Shown here one piece after another: positions 17,678-27,073 of a stretch of DNA of 64,000 bases; within the stretch, counting starts at the first letter, position 1; every line of letters starts with the position of its first letter. Under the pieces are notes generated by a model. The model had not been told where the DNA came from, made no database searches, and saw only the letters and a list, made by a program, of their open reading frames with translations. Where the stretch lies: the NCBI GenBank assembly GCA_038734275.1, contig JAVYOO010000005.1, forward strand, positions 31,092 to 95,091, written 5' to 3'. The position numbers were made by a program, and so were the translations under genes. This stretch comes from Archaeoglobaceae archaeon (GTDB taxonomy: Archaea; Halobacteriota; Archaeoglobi; Archaeoglobales; Archaeoglobaceae).

Positions 17678-18145
17678 TTAATTTGCTTTTTTACCATTGG
17701 TTCTCCCGTTCTTTATACCATTTTTACCGTTTGCAATTTTATCATTCTTCTTAATTCCGCTGTTCCGACTGTTAACTCCATTTGCACCACTTATTCCATT
17801 CTTGTTGTTCAAACCATTGCTGTTGATCCTGAAGCCATTGATTCCATTGCCATTTCTGTTATTGTTATTTCTCAGCATGTAGTATAGCCCGAAAACAATA
17901 CCAAGGATCAGTGCTCCAAGTGCAACGAGTTCGGGATGTTCCTCAAGAATGCTGGTAACCGCTTTTATGCCAAGAGCTGGACCAACTGCAAGTAATGAGA
18001 AAGCAATAAGGAATGGAGCTGTAATAAGAACGCTCAGCAAAGTTAGCGAACCAGTTAAAAGTGATCCGAGAAACATGATAACTCCAAATAATGCAAGTAG
18101 AGGCAGTCCCGCAAGGGATAGGAGCACTTCTATCATTGAACCCAT
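17678..18145 (-). CDS. membrane protein with Asn/Gly-rich basic C-terminal tail
   Basis: Three hydrophobic helices are followed by a low-complexity tail of about 60 aa (NNNNRNGNGINGFRINSNGLNNKNGISGANGVNSRNSGIKKNDKIANGKNGIKNGRTNGKKAN). Confidence 0.5.
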   Translation of the reverse strand: MGSMIEVLLSLAGLPLLALFGVIMFLGSLLTGSLTLLSVLITAPFLIAFSLLAVGPALGIKAVTSILEEHPELVALGALILGIVFGLYYMLRNNNNRNGNGINGFRINSNGLNNKNGISGANGVNSRNSGIKKNDKIANGKNGIKNGRTNGKKAN

Positions 18146-18190
18146 TTTGTCTTTAACATTATATAAGGATTTCTACAATAACTTTGCTAT

Positions 18191-18664
18191 TTAGTAGAAA
18201 GTTCTATTGATAGCATTGCCAAGTTCCACAAGAACTCGAATGCTCATATTGGTCACATTCACGAGATTCCATGTTAAATTCCATAGATCAGACTGACTGG
18301 TTCGCAGTCGATGGGTTGTGTTGTTCAGTATGTATGAGAGTCCGCTTCTTCCAGTAAGGTCGCCGATTATTGATGTCACGTTGCTACCGAGATAGTTAAC
18401 CGCATTGCCAATATTAGCTAATGCGGTCTGATTCGTGGTAGCTATTGTAAAGCTTGTATTTAAAACTCCTATGCCATAGGAAGATGTAATTAGAACACCA
18501 TAAAGAATTCCCCAAACGTTAGAGAAATTCAGATTTTGACCCTGACTGACAAGAGTTGCATTTGTCGAAGCTTCTAAGGTGAGATTGAGTAAGTTTGTCA
18601 CAAATTCAAGATTCATGTTGATGATCGCAAGTGTTAGATTAACGAGTTCTGGAAGTGGGGGCAT
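18191..18664 (-). CDS. sequon-rich small protein, paralog family member 1 (uncharacterised)
   Basis: 157 aa with 13 N-x-S/T sequons. It carries the shared family core NQT-x14-SNVTSIIGDLTGRSGLSY. It has its own TATA box about 28 nt upstream. Confidence 0.55.
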   Translation of the reverse strand: MPPLPELVNLTLAIINMNLEFVTNLLNLTLEASTNATLVSQGQNLNFSNVWGILYGVLITSSYGIGVLNTSFTIATTNQTALANIGNAVNYLGSNVTSIIGDLTGRSGLSYILNNTTHRLRTSQSDLWNLTWNLVNVTNMSIRVLVELGNAINRTFY

Positions 18665-18688
18665 TCGAAAAGATGATGAACTTTATCG

Positions 18689-18696
18689 TTTATAAA
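18689..18696 (-). promoter_or_regulatory. TATA box (tttataaa) about 28 nt upstream of the ATG at 18664
   Basis: The spacing is consistent with a leaderless transcript of the 157-aa gene. Confidence 0.4.
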
Positions 18697-18708
18697 CTTT
18701 TTTACAGC

Positions 18709-19575
18709 TCAAATTATGACTGATTTCAAAGAAACGAAGAGCAAAAAAATGATTGAAATTATGCTGAAGGGAACAAGAATGAGATTTGGAGTTACTCTTA
18801 GGGCAACACCATCCCATCTTCGATTCACGATCACAACGAAGGCTATTGTGTATGGTATTACAACCGCGGAGAGTGTTTTGAGTTCGAAACTTCCGGCTTC
18901 GAGCAACACCAAAAACCAGAGAATAGCTGTGATCGTGCCGAGAGGATAAAGAGACCTCAGAACTCTCTCTGGACCAAAGAAAATCGGAGTATTCTTAAGC
19001 CCCGCCTTTTTGTCAAACTCGTAGTCCGAGACCGCTGTAGGTATGTAGAAAGTTGAAGCAAGGAGAAATGCGGAAACGTATACAATTAATGGCTGTTCTC
19101 CATTGCATGCCGAAACGCCTGCGTAAAAAACAAGGACTCCAGCAAGGGCGTTGCATATAACATCGGTAAGCGGATAAGCTTTGAACCTCGGCCATGCGGA
19201 ATAAAAATAGCCTATTGCATTTGCAACGAGCATTGCATAAAAGAATTGCATGTTTATGAGAAATGCAAAGATCTGAGAAGCTATAAGCGAGGCTGTTGCG
19301 ATTACCCATGCGGTTCTAACGCTTATCTCACCAGTAACGAGTGGTTGCTTTGAAAGGTCGAGATCCTTCGTTCTGCCGTCATGGAATTTGTCAACATCTC
19401 TATCGTAGATGGCATTGACAACAAAGCTAAAGCTCATCCAGAATGAGAATGAGAGGATTGCGAAGATCAGATTTTCTATTTCGATCCTTCCACCTACCCA
19501 CACCCCCGCACTGAATGGCAGAAGGAAGCAAGCCCATGCGTAAGGGCGTATAAGCCTGATGATTGCAGGTGTCAT
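18709..19575 (-). CDS. UbiA-family prenyltransferase
   Basis: It is polytopic with about 8-9 helices. It has Asp-rich motif 1 (NAIYDRDVDKF) and a second acidic motif region (DYEFDKKAG). Confidence 0.8.
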   Translation of the reverse strand: MTPAIIRLIRPYAWACFLLPFSAGVWVGGRIEIENLIFAILSFSFWMSFSFVVNAIYDRDVDKFHDGRTKDLDLSKQPLVTGEISVRTAWVIATASLIASQIFAFLINMQFFYAMLVANAIGYFYSAWPRFKAYPLTDVICNALAGVLVFYAGVSACNGEQPLIVYVSAFLLASTFYIPTAVSDYEFDKKAGLKNTPIFFGPERVLRSLYPLGTITAILWFLVLLEAGSFELKTLSAVVIPYTIAFVVIVNRRWDGVALRVTPNLILVPFSIISIIFLLFVSLKSVII

Positions 19576-19667
19576 GTGAAATAATGTGCAGGATTTATTT
19601 TAAATAATTTTTGCTCTTTAGCTTTGCATTGTCGAAAGACTTTTATTTAGAATGATAGATTGCTTTT

Positions 19668-20099
19668 GTGGTAAATGCAACAGACTTTGCAGTGCTACAC
19701 ATTGAAATGCTTCGAAGTCTTTTTGATCTTATTGCAAATACTTCTTTGCTCATGAGCAATGCATCGATAAATGCGATCGATATCTGGAATGCGACCTATT
19801 CTGCGATCAGCTTTCAGTATTGGGTTGCCAAGTCCTTTATTGGTGCTGGTGGTGCTTTTGATATTGCAAGACAGAATTTGACCGCAATGCGAGACTTCTC
19901 GGAGATTATAAATTTCCTTGGTCAAAATGCTACAAATATCTTCGGAAATCCAGCGGGAACAAAGGGCATGTCTGCTGTCTTCAAGAATATGACAACCTAT
20001 GTTGATCAGAACTTCACAGTCAGCTTGGCAAGAGCAATCAATGAGAGTGTAAGGTTCATAGGGAAGCTTTTGATGAACGTGAACACTTCATTTGTCTGA
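19668..20099 (+). CDS. sequon-rich small protein, paralog family member 2 (uncharacterised)
   Basis: 143 aa with a GTG start and 10 sequons. The family core is QNLT-x14-QNATNIFGNPAGTKGMSA. It is convergent with the 898-aa gene. Confidence 0.55.
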   Translation: MVNATDFAVLHIEMLRSLFDLIANTSLLMSNASINAIDIWNATYSAISFQYWVAKSFIGAGGAFDIARQNLTAMRDFSEIINFLGQNATNIFGNPAGTKGMSAVFKNMTTYVDQNFTVSLARAINESVRFIGKLLMNVNTSFV

Positions 20100-20121
20100 T
20101 TTTTAAAAAATTAAAGATGGA

Positions 20122-22818
20122 TTACTCCGGGTGTATCCAGTTGTAGTTCCATCTCGGATAAGCCCATGGTGCGGAAGTGTTGTTCAGCTCAGGCAAAGCC
20201 TTGAATAGTTCTATCAGAAGGTCTATGAGCGTGCTGAAAAGCTCCACAAGTCTGTATGCAAAGAGCTCTCGCTCGCTGTAGCTCAGAAGTCTGCTTCCAG
20301 ACCATATAAAGTTGAGCCCGTAGCAACGATAGGAGTTGGGATCATTCCAGGTGGGGTCGACAGGGCAATTGGGCGGTGGGGGTCCAAGGATGTTGCCAAG
20401 ATTTCTCATCAAAGCTTCTGAAGCTTCAACCGCCTTGTTAAAGACCGTTTGATTTGTGTAGCTGACCTTCATCAAATACCCTATGTCTCCAAGGTTCAGG
20501 AATGTGCTCACAACAAACGGGTAAACCAGAGTTCTTGGGGCAGAAACCATCAGGTTGAGCGTGGTTCTCAGGAATGGCGTAAATTCGACTATTAGGTCTT
20601 CAAATGCTCTAACGAGGTTTGCCTGATTCGTTGCATTGTTGTATCTGAAGTTCCAAATCGACATCTCCTTGCCCTGAGCTTCTGCAATGAACCTAAGGTT
20701 CTCATAGAGATAGTAAAGCCATAAGTGCTCGTAGCCCGTCCAGCCAGCTTGCGTTGTCGGATAATACGGAACGGTTTGAACAATTGCAACAAAGGGATGA
20801 ATGCCGAAGCGATGCCCAAGGATTACTCCGACTACGTGATTCTGGTCGCCATAGAGTCCAAGGAAGCCTATCAATCCGAGACCTCCGGGTCTGTCAGGGG
20901 GTATTGTGGCTGATCCCGTTGCGTCTATCCCTAAAAAGACATCTGGGATTCTAACGGGTGCACTAACAGTATAGGAAAAAACGTATTCAGTATGCGGTGC
21001 GCTAAAAGCCTCTTGGTAAGAGCTCATTCCACATATCGTAAGAGATTGCTGGGTCATGGAAAGATTTCCGGGACCTTCATGCTGACTGTAGTTAGTCCCA
21101 TTCATAAGCGATGCTAAGGTTCCACCGTAGGAAGCTATGGCAAGTTGGGCTGTGAAGCCAAGGGCGTTGTCTGGGATGTTCATCTGGATCAATGGTCCAA
21201 CTCTATAGCCTGAGAAAAGTCCACACCTATGTGCCCCTATGGGATTGCCATAGGGATCTGTGTCGATATAGCAATTGGGAGCGGTAATGACTCCGCCAAC
21301 GTTAGCCCCGATGCGTAAGGTAATAAGATGTATACTCACAGAAGCTCTAAGCGGGGTATATCCAGTGGGAGTTCTGTTACAGTAGGGTGTAATCAAATCA
21401 TCTCTTGTGCCAATCGTGATGCAAGCGGGAGTCCAGTAGGGTCTGATTGCATTGCCATATATTCCCTCTCTATCACATCCAGCGGTGTTATTGTCTGTGC
21501 AGTTGTAATCTAAGCCGAACTTCCATACACTGAAGCTTGCGCTGTTGTTGATGAACTTCTGGGATATCGGTATGTTTCGGTATTTTTGAACAGATGTGTC
21601 ATGGATGAACCATGCAAATCTTGCCCAGTCCACACCTCCAGGGTAATACATTCTCCCTATAAGGTCTAAAATGTATGTCGCTGGCACGATTGCAATATTT
21701 CTTCCACTATCAGCGGGCGGTGTTATCGTCTGACTACCGCATGATGGATCTTTAACGTATGCGGTGTTGTTGATCATGTATCCGTCATAAGCCTCTATTC
21801 GTGAGAAGTTCATTCTGTAACCCTCACCGCTGACAATTCTAATAAAAGGTGTTGTGTTGTTGGTAGGATGAGTGACCCCCATGCCTACGAACTGCTCATT
21901 TCCATATTCGTCGATAGCAAATAGTTTAATCGGGAAATTTCCTATTCCCGCGCCCCCAGTTGTTGTTGCCCGAGCCTGAAGGCTGACGGTTTGATTATAA
22001 ATAATATCGCTCCAGATTGGCGGAAAACTGCTTGAAACATAATTTACGCAAACTGAAGTGAGGCTTGCATCCGGAACATCTTGTATGAGCTCAACATAGT
22101 CCACCCAAATATAAGCACGTGCCATCGATCCGCACATGGTTTGTTGCATATTTCGATTAGCATCGCAGTCATAAGCTCTTGCGGTAATGTTGTATCTAAC
22201 CTCCCCAGTGATTGCGTTAACGAAATCCTGAGTAGGGATCGTGATATTATACCATCCCTCACCAGTGCGAATACCCGTTCCAGCACCTATTGTGTAGTTT
22301 AGATACCACGAATTTGCAGTCCAGTTCCAGACATAGATTTCGAAAAGAGCATATTCGGTTCCACCACAGCCAGTATTTCCAGTTTGATCTCCTTCGACTT
22401 CCCACCTTACATAGGCGTTTATTTGTATCGGACTCGCAGAACTTACAGATGGTCTGTATGCACTGAAGGACAGATTCAGGCTTGCCATTGCATATGAGTC
22501 ACATTGTCTTGTAACATAAAGAAGACCTACAGAGCCAGTTAGACAGTCCGAATCGAGATCTCCCACTGCCAAGCTGGCATCATCTCTGTAAGCCAGAATG
22601 TAGTAATCAACTGCGGTTAAAGGTTCACGTATTGGTGTCGTATTTTGTGGATGACCATACTCTTTAAATCCCCTCGGATATGGCATGTCTACTGTAATGT
22701 TAGCAAAAGTAACAACAAATTGTCTTGACTCCGCTATACTCAGACTAAAGATGAGAACGAGCGATATCAGGACAAATTTAAAAGCTTTTTTTGGTTTTCC
22801 TGAATAAGTTTTCATCAA
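20122..22818 (-). CDS. large secreted, sequon-rich protein (candidate surface or S-layer-like protein)
   Basis: 898 aa with an N-terminal signal peptide (KKAFKFVLISLVLIFSLSIAES). It has many N-x-S/T sites and Cys pairs. The C-terminal helical region carries the same motif as the small paralogs. There is no C-terminal anchor. Confidence 0.7.
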   Translation of the reverse strand: MMKTYSGKPKKAFKFVLISLVLIFSLSIAESRQFVVTFANITVDMPYPRGFKEYGHPQNTTPIREPLTAVDYYILAYRDDASLAVGDLDSDCLTGSVGLLYVTRQCDSYAMASLNLSFSAYRPSVSSASPIQINAYVRWEVEGDQTGNTGCGGTEYALFEIYVWNWTANSWYLNYTIGAGTGIRTGEGWYNITIPTQDFVNAITGEVRYNITARAYDCDANRNMQQTMCGSMARAYIWVDYVELIQDVPDASLTSVCVNYVSSSFPPIWSDIIYNQTVSLQARATTTGGAGIGNFPIKLFAIDEYGNEQFVGMGVTHPTNNTTPFIRIVSGEGYRMNFSRIEAYDGYMINNTAYVKDPSCGSQTITPPADSGRNIAIVPATYILDLIGRMYYPGGVDWARFAWFIHDTSVQKYRNIPISQKFINNSASFSVWKFGLDYNCTDNNTAGCDREGIYGNAIRPYWTPACITIGTRDDLITPYCNRTPTGYTPLRASVSIHLITLRIGANVGGVITAPNCYIDTDPYGNPIGAHRCGLFSGYRVGPLIQMNIPDNALGFTAQLAIASYGGTLASLMNGTNYSQHEGPGNLSMTQQSLTICGMSSYQEAFSAPHTEYVFSYTVSAPVRIPDVFLGIDATGSATIPPDRPGGLGLIGFLGLYGDQNHVVGVILGHRFGIHPFVAIVQTVPYYPTTQAGWTGYEHLWLYYLYENLRFIAEAQGKEMSIWNFRYNNATNQANLVRAFEDLIVEFTPFLRTTLNLMVSAPRTLVYPFVVSTFLNLGDIGYLMKVSYTNQTVFNKAVEASEALMRNLGNILGPPPPNCPVDPTWNDPNSYRCYGLNFIWSGSRLLSYSERELFAYRLVELFSTLIDLLIELFKALPELNNTSAPWAYPRWNYNWIHPE

Positions 22819-22859
22819 GCCCCATTTTATTATTATTGAATAAAAGGTTTTCTGTTACT

Positions 22860-24239
22860 TTATGGCTGGAGTTTTGAAACTCCAAAAGCCAATATCAAAG
22901 CCAAAAAGATCAATAAGATTGCATATAAAAGCTCCTTGGAGATTCCTAAGTCCCTTATTTGCTGGATATTTTCATTTGAATATGTTTTTTCCTGATTATC
23001 TTCAGGAGTTGAACTTACTTCTGGAGTCTTTGACTCATTTCTTCCAGCCTGAGTTTCCAACGCAGAAGAAATATCGAATATTGCATTTGGCTTATAGCTT
23101 TTCTCCCAGATAAGTTCACCATTTTTACTCATCTTGCCAAGCCAGATGCATTCGCCTTTACAGCCACTCGAAGTCAGCAGATAGCCATCATCTTCTTTAA
23201 GCATTCTGACAACTCCATATATTGATTCTTCAAATTTAAAGTTTTTTCTTAGAATAATTGGGTCTGAGTTGATCTTTGAAACCCAGAGAAATTCTCCTTC
23301 AGCATCTTTTCCACCACCCGCAATAATTTCTTCGTCATCTGCTATAACAGACCATGCAGACATCTTACCAGCATCAAAGAACCTTTTTAGTTTAATTTCT
23401 CCATTGCGATCGAGCTTTATTGCAAAGGCAACTGTTGATCCATCGCAACCCCCGCATCCGCAACCTCTCATCTCTTCTGTTATTTCCCCTACTACCATAT
23501 AACCATCTTTAACTTCTACAACATCCCAAGCCATCTCATCTTTTCCCAAATCGTAAAATTTGCTCCACTCGATCTCTCCATTCTCTTTTAGCTTCAGAAC
23601 CCAGATAATGTAATTTATATCACCGAAATAGTTATCTTCTTCATCGGGGTAATCTACTACATATCCAGCACCAATGTAGCCATTTGAGGCTCTCCTTAGC
23701 ATTTTGATGCTATCGTATTCCTCATAGTCTATTTTTTCTCTCCAAATTTCTTTACCATCTTTATGTAGCTTTATAAGAAAAGTGTCAGTATTGCCTGATT
23801 CGTTGGCGTTGTATATTGTCAATACTGCTAAAATATCCATTCCATCGGAAGAAATGCCGGTTACACCGCCTATAAATTCTATGAACTTTTTCTCCCAAAC
23901 AACTTCACCGAATTTATCAATCATAACCAGCCATGGATGCACATCATTAAAACCCGTATAACCGCCAATTAGATATCCTTCGTTAATCTCTATAATATGG
24001 CGGGCATGAGAAAAGTTGTCTCCTACATAGGTTTTATTCCAAATTTCATTTCCGTTCTTGTCAACTTTTATAACACATGCATTGCTTAAACCATAACTCA
24101 GCCCCGAAAGTCCAGCGATTACGTAGCCATCATCTGTTTTAATGAGAGAAGTGGGCATACTCCATGAACTAACTGGTGCTATAATTAGCATCAGCAACAG
24201 CAAATATATGATTTTCACGTTTGTATTTTGTTCAAACAT
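22860..24239 (-). CDS. membrane-anchored beta-propeller-repeat protein (paralog B)
   Basis: It has a signal peptide. It has reiterated units of the form D(G)GY[IL][IV]xG ... K[LIV]D/K..G..[IL]W.K. It ends in a Ser/Thr/Glu-rich stalk and a C-terminal TM helix (LLYAILLIFLALILAFGVS). Confidence 0.7.
   Translation of the reverse strand: MFEQNTNVKIIYLLLLMLIIAPVSSWSMPTSLIKTDDGYVIAGLSGLSYGLSNACVIKVDKNGNEIWNKTYVGDNFSHARHIIEINEGYLIGGYTGFNDVHPWLVMIDKFGEVVWEKKFIEFIGGVTGISSDGMDILAVLTIYNANESGNTDTFLIKLHKDGKEIWREKIDYEEYDSIKMLRRASNGYIGAGYVVDYPDEEDNYFGDINYIIWVLKLKENGEIEWSKFYDLGKDEMAWDVVEVKDGYMVVGEITEEMRGCGCGGCDGSTVAFAIKLDRNGEIKLKRFFDAGKMSAWSVIADDEEIIAGGGKDAEGEFLWVSKINSDPIILRKNFKFEESIYGVVRMLKEDDGYLLTSSGCKGECIWLGKMSKNGELIWEKSYKPNAIFDISSALETQAGRNESKTPEVSSTPEDNQEKTYSNENIQQIRDLGISKELLYAILLIFLALILAFGVSKLQP
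22874..22943. repeat. 70-bp direct repeat, copy 1 (69/70 identical to 24269-24338)
   Basis: The comparison was done by eye. It covers the C-terminal TM anchor coding region of both propeller paralogs. Confidence 0.9.
23065..23195. repeat. 131-bp perfect direct repeat, copy 1 (identical to 24436-24566)
   Basis: I compared the two copies character by character. The repeat encodes the last propeller blade (DDGYLLTSSGCKGECIWLGKMSKNGELIWEKSYKPNAIFDISS). Confidence 0.92.
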
Positions 24240-25589
24240 TTAAAGCTTTTCTCTACCAGATCCAAACCTTGAAACTCCAAAAGCCAATATCAAAGCCAAA
24301 AAGATCAATAAGACTGCATATAAAAGCTCCTTGGAGATCGTAAAGCTTTTCTTATGCTCTCGATCATCTTGGAGCGGAGAAATTCCTTCATTGCTCTCTT
24401 GGAATTTATTTTCGCTAGCTTGTGTCTCGAATATCGAAGAAATATCGAATATTGCATTTGGCTTATAGCTTTTCTCCCAGATAAGTTCACCATTTTTACT
24501 CATCTTGCCAAGCCAGATGCATTCGCCTTTACAGCCACTCGAAGTCAGCAGATAGCCATCATCTTCAAGAACTCTAACCAATCCGTAAATCGCCGGAAGA
24601 AATCTGAAATCCCCTTCTATAATCTTTGGAGATCCATTAATTTCAGAGAACCACAGATAATATCCTTCTTCATCAATTGCGGTTCCAAAAATCTTTGGTT
24701 CTGGATTGCATAGCACTGACCAAGCTGATGTGATTTTACCGACTTCAAAGAACTTTTTCCATTCGATATTACCTTTTAAATCTAACTTAATGGCAAAAGC
24801 CTTCGCTGTGTAATTTGAAACTGATGAACATCTGCAAGATAACTCTGGAAACGTCCCTCCAACAATTATATATCCATCTTTTACTTCCGCCACATCCCAA
24901 GCTACTTCATCAAATCCCAAATCCAAGATTTTACTCCACTCTTCATTTCCATCATTATCAAGCTTTAGGATCAGCAAATCATAATTTCTATAAAGACCAT
25001 TCACATAATCTCCAATACAACCAGCGCCAATAAATCCCCCATCGCCACTCTTTTTGATCATCTTTACGCTGTTGTAGTCTCTATAATCGAATATTCTTTT
25101 CCAGACTTCATTTCCATCTTTATCGAGTTTGACGATCAAAAGACTTTGATGTGAGCAATTATCTATGCTTAAGGGCATCGATATTGAAGCAACAATGCTG
25201 TCATTTTCAGAAACTAAAGCTGGAACACCGCTGATGCATCCATCATAGCCATAAATTTTTTGCCATAAAGGGCGCCCATTATAATTAACTTTTATAATTA
25301 ATCCTTTATCTCCTACTACTGAATTTCCAATCACTCCTCCGATCGCATATCCACTGGCTGTTCTCACAACGCTCCAAGCTTGTAAGTCGTAGTTTGTGGA
25401 ATATACTTTATCCCAGAGAAGCTCCCCATCTCGATCTATTTTCATAATAAAAGGACGTTTATAACCTGAGTAAATTGTTCCAGCAATGATATATCCACCA
25501 TCTGTCTTGTCTATTGAAAAAGGTATAGACCATGCGCTAATTGGTAGGAGGATACTGGAAATCAAAAGCAAGAAGAACCAAATTTTCAC
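24240..25589 (-). CDS. membrane-anchored beta-propeller-repeat protein (paralog A)
   Basis: It has the same architecture as the downstream paralog. Its stop abuts the downstream start with a 0-nt gap. An AT-rich promoter-like box lies at about 25600-25640. Confidence 0.7.
   Translation of the reverse strand: MKIWFFLLLISSILLPISAWSIPFSIDKTDGGYIIAGTIYSGYKRPFIMKIDRDGELLWDKVYSTNYDLQAWSVVRTASGYAIGGVIGNSVVGDKGLIIKVNYNGRPLWQKIYGYDGCISGVPALVSENDSIVASISMPLSIDNCSHQSLLIVKLDKDGNEVWKRIFDYRDYNSVKMIKKSGDGGFIGAGCIGDYVNGLYRNYDLLILKLDNDGNEEWSKILDLGFDEVAWDVAEVKDGYIIVGGTFPELSCRCSSVSNYTAKAFAIKLDLKGNIEWKKFFEVGKITSAWSVLCNPEPKIFGTAIDEEGYYLWFSEINGSPKIIEGDFRFLPAIYGLVRVLEDDGYLLTSSGCKGECIWLGKMSKNGELIWEKSYKPNAIFDISSIFETQASENKFQESNEGISPLQDDREHKKSFTISKELLYAVLLIFLALILAFGVSRFGSGREKL
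24269..24338. repeat. 70-bp direct repeat, copy 2
   Basis: There is one mismatch (t/c) relative to 22874-22943. Confidence 0.9.
24436..24566. repeat. 131-bp perfect direct repeat, copy 2
   Basis: It is identical to 23065-23195. The flanking stalk-coding DNA is strongly diverged. Confidence 0.92.
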
Positions 25590-25651
25590 GTTAATACTCT
25601 TTCAGTATAATATTTAAAATTTTTTACACCTAACTGTTGGAGAAAAATCTA

Positions 25652-26110
25652 TCAAGTGTAGAAGAGTATCAACCTCTCTCCAACCTTCCCAAGGGCTGAG
25701 AATAGCCATTTAAAGAACTGTAAAACCCAATAGACGGTCTCAGGTCCTTTATTTTGGCAGTAGAATCCGGGCTGAATACACTGGTAGCCAACGTTCCAGA
25801 GATAAGCCATTCCTTTCGTTCCGTTCCAGTCACCAAAAACAATTGTGGAATTGTTCGCCATTTTCTGCCATACACGAACGCTGTAGTCCATCGTTGTGGA
25901 ATTGTTGTAAACATAGTATATGTGATCCGCTATGAAGTCGGAGAAGTATTTAAGATGACCAAATATGTAAATGATAGCATCTGCGGTTTCGTTTGCAATT
26001 AGCTCGCTAACAGCAATTGTTCTGAGAATTGTCCCAAAGAATATGGCAACTCCAGAAACGAAATCCATCACATAGGTTGCCGCAATCCAGACATCTATTG
26101 GCATAGGCAC
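25652..26110 (-). CDS. sequon-rich small protein, paralog family member 5 (uncharacterised)
   Basis: 152 aa with an N-terminal hydrophobic helix. The family core is NNST-x14-NNSTIVFGDWNGTKGMAY. Its start abuts the upstream stop. Confidence 0.55.
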   Translation of the reverse strand: MPMPIDVWIAATYVMDFVSGVAIFFGTILRTIAVSELIANETADAIIYIFGHLKYFSDFIADHIYYVYNNSTTMDYSVRVWQKMANNSTIVFGDWNGTKGMAYLWNVGYQCIQPGFYCQNKGPETVYWVLQFFKWLFSALGKVGERLILFYT

Positions 26111-26641
26111 TCACGGAGGGAAATAAACTGTCGGCACGAGTCTCAAAGCATCTGAAACAAGAATTATTAGGTTCTTTAATGCTCCCCAGAAATTCAGTGC
26201 GAACTCAGGAGCGATGGTCTGGTTGTTGGAGACATTTGAAAGCTGTGTTGTTGCAGCTCTCAGCAGGAATGTTATTCCGTTCTGTCCCATTGCATCTCCG
26301 AACATCTTTGTTCCATTTCCCGCAGCTATTGCTACAACGTTCGAAAATTCGTCTCTAAGACCCACAGGAAGCCCAGTTATTGGATCAGTAACGGTTGTAT
26401 TGTTTCTTATATGCCATATAAAGCCCCTTTCCTCAAAGAGCATCTTTCTGAGCCATGTCATCATTGCTGTGCCGTTATACCATATTTCCCAGAAGCTCTG
26501 ATAGTCGGTTCTCGTGCCAACAAGTCTTGTCTCATTGCGCCCCGTGTAGACTAAGTATATGAAAAACTCTTTCAGCAATCCAAATAATGATGAAAGCCCC
26601 TGAAGGATCACATCGCCAAGATACCAGAAAGACGAGGGCAT
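26111..26641 (-). CDS. sequon-rich small protein, paralog family member 4 (uncharacterised)
   Basis: 176 aa with the family core GNGTKMFGDAMGQNGITF. There is a 3-nt gap to the upstream gene. Confidence 0.55.
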   Translation of the reverse strand: MPSSFWYLGDVILQGLSSLFGLLKEFFIYLVYTGRNETRLVGTRTDYQSFWEIWYNGTAMMTWLRKMLFEERGFIWHIRNNTTVTDPITGLPVGLRDEFSNVVAIAAGNGTKMFGDAMGQNGITFLLRAATTQLSNVSNNQTIAPEFALNFWGALKNLIILVSDALRLVPTVYFPP

Positions 26642-26644
26642 AGC

Positions 26645-27073
26645 TCAGAGAAACTCGTAGGCTTTTGCTATATACATCACGAGACTCTTTAAAGCGCGGA
26701 AAAAGTCCACCGTTATATTGTAGGCAAGCGGTTTGTTTGTTGTGAAGTTTAGGTTTGACTGATTTGCTATATAAGCCATACCCGTGTTACCCGTAAAATT
26801 TCCGAAGAAGTTGGTATAGTTTACAGAGAGTTCTCTAAGCGTGTCGTTAAACGCAGCTACGAGTGTCTGATTCTGGGCTGTAACCCCCATGATTGCAGCG
26901 AGGAACTTCACAAGCCAGACTTGTATTGCCATGAGACCGTAGATGAAGTCGGGATGTGTTGGCGGTAAAGTTGACATTATGGGCTCAAGCATTCCATGGA
27001 TTAAGATGAATGAATCCTGAATCGGTTGCAGAATTCCTCTTGCAACGAATTCACTTGCTCTGGCTATCGGCAT
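26645..27073 (-). CDS. sequon-rich small protein, paralog family member 3 (uncharacterised)
   Basis: 142 aa with the family core QNQT-x14-VNYTNFFGNFTGNTGMAY. All 7 sequons lie C-terminal to a single hydrophobic segment. Confidence 0.55.
   Translation of the reverse strand: MPIARASEFVARGILQPIQDSFILIHGMLEPIMSTLPPTHPDFIYGLMAIQVWLVKFLAAIMGVTAQNQTLVAAFNDTLRELSVNYTNFFGNFTGNTGMAYIANQSNLNFTTNKPLAYNITVDFFRALKSLVMYIAKAYEFL

What the first reader, a model, noticed from the sequence alone, without database searches (positions are those of the whole stretch)
20122..20700. C-terminal domain of the 898-aa secreted protein is a sixth copy of the small-protein module
The last 150 aa or so of the large protein contain YTNQTVFNKAVEASEALMRNLGNILG. 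This has the same NQT-to-N spacing of 17 residues and the same L-G-x-N-x-x-I/F-G layout as the small paralogs. It ends in an amphipathic helix (RLVELFSTLIDLLIELFKALPELNNTS). That helix echoes the N-terminus of paralog 1 (MPPLPELVNLTLAIINMNLEF). A shared module between a large signal-peptide protein and free-standing small proteins is what one would expect for subunits that dock onto or copolymerise with a scaffold protein.
Basis: seen in the sequence. Interest (0 to 1): 0.6.

Follow-up and report, generated by a model that had tools for sequence, protein, structure and literature searches.

The report
Helical module fused to surface protein
The tail of an 898-residue secreted archaeal protein is a true but diverged copy of the small helical proteins encoded next to it, and this gene set is conserved in Archaeoglobus relatives, so the proteins probably form one uncharacterised cell-surface complex.

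Summary
The quoted motifs lie at aa 787-812 and 856-882 of the 898-aa protein (BIG, 20122-22818, minus strand).

An HMM of the five small paralogs scores the last 200 aa at 11.7 bits. None of 2000 shuffles reach that.
- **Genome-wide rank.** BIG is the top non-member among 3343 genome ORFs (E=0.057).
- **Intermediate sequences.** Full-length BIG orthologs in 11 other Archaeoglobaceae genomes, including A. fulgidus AF_2119, match the small-family profile at their C-termini (E 1e-12 to 2e-5). One is found library-wide among 1.84 billion proteins (E=4e-5).
- **Profile-profile.** 97.4% probability, E=1e-11, paralog 1 aa 9-155 against BIG aa 737-878.
- **Secondary structure.** The helices correspond one to one.

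In the window's lineage the family's GDPxGTxG loop is replaced by a 16-residue Cys-flanked insert, which makes the window's copy the hardest one to recognise.

Two details are wrong. The last helix matches the module's C-terminal helix, not the N-terminus of paralog 1. The genome has ten free copies, not five.

The cassette of four small paralogs, BIG and a propeller anchor is conserved. This fits co-assembly, which remains untested. No known family matches either protein.

The parts
20122..22818 (-). BIG: 898-aa protein. It has an N-terminal Sec-type signal peptide, beta-sandwich/Ig-like N-terminal domains (aa ~30-377), a conserved Cys- and His-rich middle region, and a C-terminal helical module.
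   Evidence: ORF. AF2 model is confident only for aa 30-377. Generic beta-sandwich fold hits. No Pfam, NCBIfam or PDB family. 23 sequons, z=5.8.
20185..20610 (-). C-terminal helical module of BIG (aa 737-878), homologous to the whole small-protein module (paralog 1 aa 9-155).
   Evidence: hhalign probability 97.4%, E=1e-11, 127 columns. Shuffle control. DSSP helices 729-759, 765-788, 790-805, 831-842 and 847-874 match p1 helices 4-34, 47-77, 79-94, 108-122 and 124-155.
20383..20460 (-). Core motif YTNQT...RNLGNILG (aa 787-812). N789-Q-T791 sits at the N-cap of helix 3, with N806 17 residues later and G812.
   Evidence: T791 and G812 are invariant and N789 is at least 90% conserved in 16 large-protein homologs.
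20320..20382 (-). Lineage-specific insert PPPPNCPVDPTWNDPNSYRCY (aa 813-833, Cys818 and Cys832). It replaces the family's GDPxGTxG loop.
   Evidence: Alignment of 19 large-protein C-termini. Orthologs outside the window's clade have GPPDASTG or GDPSANSG with no insert.
20173..20253 (-). Last helix, RLVELFSTLIDLLIELFKALPELNNTS (aa 856-882). It is the counterpart of module helix 5, which ends in [AI][IL]PxxF.
   Evidence: HMM and hhalign alignments.
18191..18664 (-). Small paralog p1 (157 aa, no signal peptide, 13 sequons).
   Evidence: AF2 pLDDT 77.8, all-alpha.
19668..20099 (+). Small paralog p2 (143 aa). It is the ortholog of AF_2123.
25652..26110 (-). Small paralog p3 (152 aa). It is the ortholog of AF_2120.
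26111..26641 (-). Small paralog p4 (176 aa). It is the ortholog of AF_2121. There is a 0-nt gap to p3.
26645..27073 (-). Small paralog p5 (142 aa). It is the ortholog of AF_2122. There is a 3-nt gap to p4.
22860..25589 (-). Two tandem SBBP-type beta-propeller proteins (459 and 449 aa). Each has a signal peptide and a C-terminal transmembrane anchor. This is the third conserved partner of the cassette.
   Evidence: NCBIfam NF047494, E 1e-7 to 5e-11. TM peaks. Homologs lie next to BIG in 7 loci.

Best explanation
**Shown.** The last ~145-170 residues of the 898-aa secreted protein (aa ~737-878) are a diverged, fused member of the same helical family as the small neighbouring proteins.
- The family is all-alpha. 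The p1 model shows four long helical segments, the third interrupted by a conserved FGDPxGTxG loop. I read this as a four-helix bundle, but coordinates were not inspected and pTM is only 0.60.
- The fusion is old. All large-protein modules form one clade, separate from the six small orthologous groups.
- The window's lineage has replaced the signature loop with a Cys-flanked 16-residue insert.
- The cassette p2-p5-p4-p3-BIG, usually with an SBBP propeller carrying a C-terminal membrane anchor, is conserved in two Archaeoglobaceae genera. In A. fulgidus it is AF_2123 to AF_2119.

**Inferred.** The four free, very hydrophobic, translationally coupled subunits pack against the homologous C-terminal module of BIG. 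Together they would form a hetero-oligomeric helical stalk or base of an N-glycosylated cell-surface complex. This stalk would present the beta-sandwich head of BIG and be tethered by the propeller protein.

**Confidence by part.** About 0.95 for the homology and about 0.4 for co-assembly. The single figure given is a compromise for the whole statement.
For: **Homology.**
- Five-paralog HMM: 11.7 bits on the last 200 aa, against 0 of 2000 shuffles.
- BIG is the top non-member among 3343 ORFs, E=0.057.
- Family profile A4 hits the C-terminal ~90 aa of large ORFs next to small-paralog clusters in related genomes, per-genome E 3e-9 to 3e-4. On called ORFs the values are E 1e-12 to 2e-5, for example aa 721-805 of 827.
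- Those large ORFs are full-length homologs of BIG, E 1e-44 to 1e-106, with alignments running to aa 895.
- P0092 (826 aa) is found among 1.84e9 proteins at E=4e-5, profile positions 64-154 against aa 714-804.
- hhalign gives 97.4% and E=1e-11. With the window clade alone it gives 81% and P=1.2e-5. Shuffles reach at most 19.6, against 78.5 observed.
- Helices correspond one to one.

**Functional link.**
- Cassette order is conserved in eight or more genomes.
- All 15 BIG-positive genomes of 96 Archaeoglobi also hold the small family.
- The only conserved neighbours are the small paralogs, BIG and the SBBP propeller.
- Each paralog group is a separate clade.
- Gene gaps are 0 and 3 nt.
- Sequon enrichment is shared by BIG and the small proteins: 3.9-8.3 per 100 aa against a genome mean of 0.42, z 4.5-6.
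Against: - No interaction was tested.
- The AF2 model of BIG's C-terminus has pLDDT below 45, so the fold comparison rests on secondary structure only.
- p1-p5 lack signal peptides in all genomes examined, whereas BIG has one. Meeting outside the cell therefore needs an unknown export route for the small subunits.
- The window's own BIG lacks the family's most conserved loop motif.
- The N-terminal third of the module aligns with low column confidence.
Confidence: 0.55

Rival explanations
1. The module is homologous but acts on its own. Each copy, free or fused, would do the same job independently, for example self-association, glycan display or binding a common ligand through the conserved loop. 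No hetero-complex would form between BIG and the small proteins.
For: - The second cluster of five signal-peptide-bearing paralogs on contig C6 has no large protein nearby.
- One genome (G013) has a q-type copy only.
- The window's BIG has lost the signature loop, so it cannot share a loop-dependent function.
Against: - BIG co-occurs strictly with the small family, and the p2-p5-p4-p3-BIG order is conserved.
- Four distinct orthologous groups are retained side by side with overlapping or abutting genes. This is the usual signature of stoichiometric subunits.
Confidence: 0.27
2. The leaderless small paralogs are cytoplasmic escorts or chaperones. They would bind the homologous C-terminal module of BIG before its export by mimicking its packing partners, and would not be part of the final surface structure.
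For: - p1-p5 have no signal peptide in any genome examined.
- Their helices are unusually hydrophobic, with a maximum KD19 of 1.0-1.9.
- They are encoded immediately next to BIG.
Against: - p1-p5 are the most sequon-rich ORFs of the genome. N-x-S/T far exceeds both composition shuffles and the reversed motif, in orthologs too.
- That pattern is expected only for proteins exposed to the external oligosaccharyltransferase AglB (established knowledge).
- Sec export handles unfolded chains, so a folded escort complex has no obvious role.
Confidence: 0.12
3. The resemblance is a chance or compositional similarity between Asn-rich helical sequences, and there is no shared module.
For: - Scores on the window's own protein are weak: 9-12 bits by HMM, and hhalign 46% with the first small alignments.
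Against: - Library-wide E=4e-5 for an ortholog.
- Per-genome E down to 3e-9 in independent genomes.
- hhalign E=1e-11 with shuffle and sliding-window controls.
- Colinear match of motif, loop, helix 4 and helix 5.
Confidence: 0.03
4. The cassette encodes a multi-component alpha-helical membrane-active (pore-forming or toxin-like) system, or a provirus structural module, rather than a resident surface complex.
For: - It has tandem paralogous hydrophobic helical proteins, some leaderless.
- Its distribution within the class is patchy: 20 of 96 genomes.
Against: - There is no significant structural match to alpha-pore-forming toxins or to viral proteins. AhlC scores E=4.8, and the best BFVD hit is E=1.4.
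- There are no PHROG hits.
- The family is present in all 11 genomes of one genus, at a chromosomal locus.
Confidence: 0.03

Closest known systems
Uncharacterised A. fulgidus proteins AF_2119 (large) and AF_2120, AF_2121, AF_2122, AF_2123 (small)
   Same: They are direct orthologs of BIG and of p3, p4, p5 and p2, in the same gene order. AF_2119 carries the same C-terminal module (E=7.5e-7, aa 638-719 of 741).
   Different: AF_2119 is shorter (741 aa). It keeps a GPPDASTG loop without the Cys-flanked insert. All five are annotated only as hypothetical. No paper in the searched library mentions them.
LXG toxins with their small helical Lap/WXG100-like partners (type VII secretion, Firmicutes; e.g. 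TelA-LXG/LapA3/LapA4, PDB 8gmh)
   Same: This is an architectural analogy. A large protein carries a helical domain, and leaderless small helical proteins are encoded next to it and bundle with that domain (own knowledge).
   Different: - There is no sequence or significant fold match: 8gmh_C scores E=4.5, and no WXG100 or LXG Pfam hit was found.
- The domain here is C-terminal, not N-terminal.
- BIG has a Sec signal peptide.
- No type VII secretion system is known in archaea (own knowledge).
Archaeal S-layer stalk/anchor pairs (SlaA/SlaB of Sulfolobales; the tetrabrachion coiled-coil stalk)
   Same: These are N-glycosylated surface assemblies in which a helical bundle or stalk supports a beta-rich outer part and is tethered by a membrane-anchored partner (own knowledge).
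   Different: There is no homology. The distribution is patchy (15-20 of 96 Archaeoglobi genomes), so this is not the general S-layer. Here the stalk would be built from five different paralogous modules.
Tripartite alpha-helical pore-forming toxins (AhlABC, SmhABC, Hbl, Nhe)
   Same: They are sets of paralogous helical-bundle proteins encoded in tandem, with buried hydrophobic helices (own knowledge).
   Different: The structural match is not significant: 6h2d_S scores E=4.8. Those systems have no fused large carrier protein. Nothing here indicates toxicity.

Membership tests
Small sequon-rich helical family (unnamed; AF_2120 to AF_2123 type) | A significant profile match over the module | tested here: met
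   hhalign 97.4%, E=1e-11. The window clade alone gives 81%, P=1.2e-5. Orthologs score HMM E 1e-12 to 2e-5. The library-wide hit is E=4e-5.
Small sequon-rich helical family (unnamed; AF_2120 to AF_2123 type) | N-x-T at the start of helix 3, followed 17 residues later by N-x-x-x-[IF]-[FL]-G | tested here: met
   BIG has N789-Q-T791, then N806-L-G-N-I-L-G812. The second position is no longer a sequon (NLG).
Small sequon-rich helical family (unnamed; AF_2120 to AF_2123 type) | Signature loop G-D-P-x-G-T-x-G between helix 3 and helix 4 | tested here: not met
   The window's BIG has GPPPPNC...YRCYG with a 16-residue insert. Orthologs in other clades keep GPPDASTG or GDPSANSG. The feature is lost secondarily in this lineage. 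It is present in the large-protein family as a whole.
Small sequon-rich helical family (unnamed; AF_2120 to AF_2123 type) | G-[LM]-x-[YF]-[IL]-[LW] at the start of helix 4, and a last helix ending in [AI]-[IL]-P-x-x-F | tested here: met
   BIG has G834-L-N-F-I-W, then LIELFKALPEL. The final F is replaced (PELN).
Small sequon-rich helical family (unnamed; AF_2120 to AF_2123 type) | The same order and lengths of five helices | tested here: inconclusive
   DSSP elements correspond one to one. However, the BIG model has pLDDT below 45 in this region, and no 3D superposition was possible.
WXG100/LXG (type VII secretion substrates) | A Pfam WXG100 or LXG domain, or a significant fold match | tested here: not met
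   No such Pfam hit at E<=1. Foldseek scores 8gmh_C at E=4.5.
Viral or proviral structural proteins | A match to PHROGs or to BFVD structures | tested here: not met
   No PHROG hit. The best BFVD hit is E=1.4.

The most novel reading that the evidence does not exclude
An Archaeoglobaceae-specific, previously undescribed surface machine. In this reading, four leaderless but heavily N-glycosylated helical paralogs leave the cell by an unknown route that needs no signal peptide. Outside, they assemble with the homologous C-terminal domain of a Sec-exported beta-rich protein and a propeller anchor. This would imply a new export pathway for archaeal glycoproteins and a new type of hetero-oligomeric stalk.
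Probability: 0.25. Interest if true: 0.75.

Novelty: new variant of a known kind. Interest (0 to 1): 0.45.

Why it matters
This work links six uncharacterised protein families into one conserved cassette. The families have no Pfam, NCBIfam, PDB or literature record. One of them comes from the model archaeon A. fulgidus (AF_2119 to AF_2123).

The result gives a concrete and testable architecture: a fused helical module plus four free paralogs and a propeller anchor.

It also exposes a real puzzle. The most sequon-rich proteins of the genome have no signal peptide. If they are truly glycosylated, archaea must have an export route for leaderless glycoproteins that has not been described.

Tried and rejected
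- **Known families for BIG and the small proteins.** Pfam, NCBIfam and PHROGs scans gave nothing.
- **PDB by sequence profile.** Nothing was found.
- **Foldseek with the p1 model.** No match at E<=0.001 against PDB or BFVD.
- **Foldseek with the BIG model.** Only generic beta-sandwich hits with TM below 0.3.
- **AF2 of full BIG with 8 sequences.** The C-terminal half is unusable, pLDDT below 45.
- **Literature.** Searches for the AF locus tags and UniProt or RefSeq accessions found nothing relevant.
- **Spurious hits.** Two long representative hits, P0054 and P0068, are translated tandem repeats and were discarded.
- **Transmembrane reading of the small proteins.** A Kyte-Doolittle scan gives only marginal, non-conserved peaks, so this reading was rejected.
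Full report
**Setting.** The window is contig C5:31092-95091 of a 1.73-Mb Archaeoglobaceae genome. All genes below are on the minus strand unless stated. The region 17.6-27.1 kb holds:
- a 3-TM protein with an Asn/Gly-rich tail (17678-18145);
- small paralog p1 (18191-18664);
- a UbiA prenyltransferase (18709-19575; Pfam E=9e-31);
- p2 (19668-20099, plus strand);
- the 898-aa protein BIG (20122-22818);
- two SBBP-type beta-propeller proteins, each with a signal peptide and a C-terminal TM anchor (22860-24239 and 24240-25589);
- p3, p4 and p5 (25652-27073), separated by gaps of 0 and 3 nt.

**Checking the observation.**
- The quoted strings are at aa 787-812 and 856-882 of BIG. The 17-residue N-to-N spacing is real in BIG and in most paralogs.
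An HMM of the five paralogs places its best domain at aa 782-812.
- The last 200 aa score 11.7 bits, and 0 of 2000 shuffles reach that (shuffle maximum 7.0). The whole protein scores 9.1 bits, reached by 2 of 2000.
- So the similarity is distinguishable from shuffles, but it is weak when only the window's sequences are used.

**More family members.**
- The genome has a second cluster of five paralogs on contig C6. Each has a clear Sec signal peptide.
- The window's paralogs start exactly where the mature C6 proteins start.
- The C6 copies end in LIELAKAIPKAFT-type helices. These align with BIG's LIELFKALPEL.
- BIG's last helix is therefore the counterpart of the module's last helix, not of the N-terminus of p1.
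- With 45 family sequences, BIG is the best non-member among all 3343 genome ORFs, E=0.057.
- hhalign against the C-termini of BIG's seven close homologs gave 46%, P=2e-4. Other parts of BIG gave P>=0.012. The maximum of 400 column shuffles was 23.4, against 32.4 observed.

**Decisive evidence from intermediate sequences.**
- I searched 96 Archaeoglobi genomes with the family profile. It hit not only small ORFs but also profile positions ~60-154 inside long open frames (490-869 aa) next to small-paralog clusters, at per-genome E 3e-9 to 3e-4.
- On called ORFs the match lies at the extreme C-terminus, for example aa 721-805 of 827, 696-793 of 813 and 638-719 of 741, with E 1e-12 to 2e-5.
- These large proteins are full-length homologs of BIG, E 1e-44 to 1e-106, with alignments running to aa 895.
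- An exhaustive HMMER scan of 1.84 billion representatives independently found one of them. P0092 (826 aa) scored E=4e-5, profile positions 64-154 against aa 714-804.
- These orthologs keep the family's signature loop (GDPSANSG or GPPDASTG, followed by GLNY[IL]L).
- The window's clade has a 16-residue insert flanked by two conserved Cys (GPPPPNC...YRCYGLNFIW) at that point. The window's own copy is therefore the hardest one to recognise.
- With 127 small proteins and 19 large C-termini, hhalign gives 97.4% and E=1e-11 over 127 columns, mapping p1 aa 9-155 onto BIG aa 737-878.
- In 200 column shuffles the maximum score is 19.6, against 78.5 observed. The window clade alone gives 81%, P=1.2e-5.

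**Structure.**
- AF2 on p1 with 44 sequences gives pLDDT 77.8 and an all-alpha model. The helices are 4-34, 47-77 and 79-94, then the GDxxGxxG loop at 100-107, then 108-122 and 124-155.
- I read this as a four-helix bundle whose third element is interrupted by the conserved loop. That topology is inferred from helix lengths only. Coordinates were not inspected and pTM is 0.60.
- The full-length BIG model is confident only for N-terminal beta domains (aa 30-377) and poor in the C-terminus, pLDDT below 45.
- Its DSSP helices (729-759, 765-788, 790-805, loop 806-830, 831-842, 847-874) match p1's elements one to one.
- Neither model has a significant relative in PDB or BFVD.
- No Pfam, NCBIfam, PHROG or PDB sequence family matches either protein.

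**Evolution and context.**
- In a maximum-likelihood tree of 64 modules, the 19 large-protein modules form one clade (SH-aLRT 100). p1, p2, p3, p4, p5 and the signal-peptide-bearing q group are each one clade.
- The fusion is therefore ancient and happened once. It is not a recent copy of a neighbour.
- Gene order p2-p5-p4-p3-BIG recurs in eight or more genomes. An SBBP propeller lies beside BIG in seven loci.
- In A. fulgidus the genes are AF_2123, AF_2122, AF_2121, AF_2120 and AF_2119, all annotated as hypothetical.
- BIG occurs in 15 of 96 Archaeoglobi genomes, in two genera. All 15 also have the small family.

**Likely mechanism.**
- Shown: BIG carries a fused member of the small helical family, and the cassette is conserved.
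- Inferred: the four free subunits pack with BIG's homologous module into a hetero-oligomeric helical stalk or base of an N-glycosylated surface complex anchored by the propeller protein.
- The inference rests on four points:
  - four distinct orthologous groups retained together;
  - abutting genes;
  - very hydrophobic helices;
  - shared sequon enrichment.
- On sequons, p1-p5 carry 3.9-8.3 N-x-S/T per 100 aa, against a genome mean of 0.42 and a 99th percentile of 2.66, with z 4.5-6 against own-composition shuffles. BIG has z=5.8. Orthologs show the same excess, and the reversed motif does not.

**Main difficulty.**
- p1-p5 and all their orthologs lack signal peptides. Most begin with Met-Pro.
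- BIG orthologs, by contrast, have classical signal peptides.
- Either the small proteins are exported by an unknown route, or they act in the cytoplasm. A cytoplasmic role would leave the sequon excess unexplained.

**Not done.**
- Literature searches for the A. fulgidus locus tags and accessions found nothing.

**Earlier notes.** One of them describes the same cluster, and the present results agree with it.

Noticed in passing
L012:6986-10263 (own genome, contig C6): A second tandem cluster of five paralogs (186-206 aa), all with cleavable-looking Sec signal peptides. It is flanked by housekeeping genes, with no large protein nearby. The window's paralogs correspond exactly to the mature part of these proteins.
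   Followed up: partly
window 18191-27073 (p1-p5): The leaderless small paralogs are the most sequon-rich ORFs in the genome (p1 has 13 N-x-S/T in 157 aa). Most start with Met-Pro. How they would reach the external oligosaccharyltransferase is unexplained.
   Followed up: partly
window 20772-20910 (BIG aa ~637-682): This is the most conserved stretch of the large family: GGLGLIGF.GLYGD..H.VG..LGHRFGIHPF. D658, H661, H669, R670, H674, P675 and F676 are invariant in 16 homologs. It could be a metal-binding or catalytic site lying just upstream of the helical module.
   Followed up: no
window 20125-20157 (BIG aa 888-898): A conserved aromatic tail, P-x-W-N-[YF]-[ND]-W-I-[HY]-P-E, follows the module. 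P888 and W890 are invariant. It may be a membrane-interface or partner-binding tag.
   Followed up: no
L017:4114-6676 (G083) and G090:C19 / G001 matches: In some genomes the BIG ortholog is split into two ORFs or aligns in several pieces, for example 391 + 416 aa in G083. These may be frameshifts or pseudogenes, or they may be domain loss.
   Followed up: no
window 22860-25589: The two SBBP propeller genes abut with a 0-nt gap and share nearly identical C-terminal TM anchors (LLYA[IV]LLIFLALILAFGVS). A propeller homolog accompanies BIG in 7 loci of other genomes.
   Followed up: partly
window 17678-19575 and L020:7836-9758: The sub-cluster of UbiA prenyltransferase, p1 and a TM protein with an Asn/Gly-rich tail is shared with only one other genome (G088; UbiA 84% identical). 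It is not part of the widely conserved cassette.
   Followed up: partly
P0054, P0068: Two long proteins (1882 and 2505 aa) hit the family profile through 7-21 weak stretches. They are translations of tandem DNA repeats, so the hits are spurious.
   Followed up: yes
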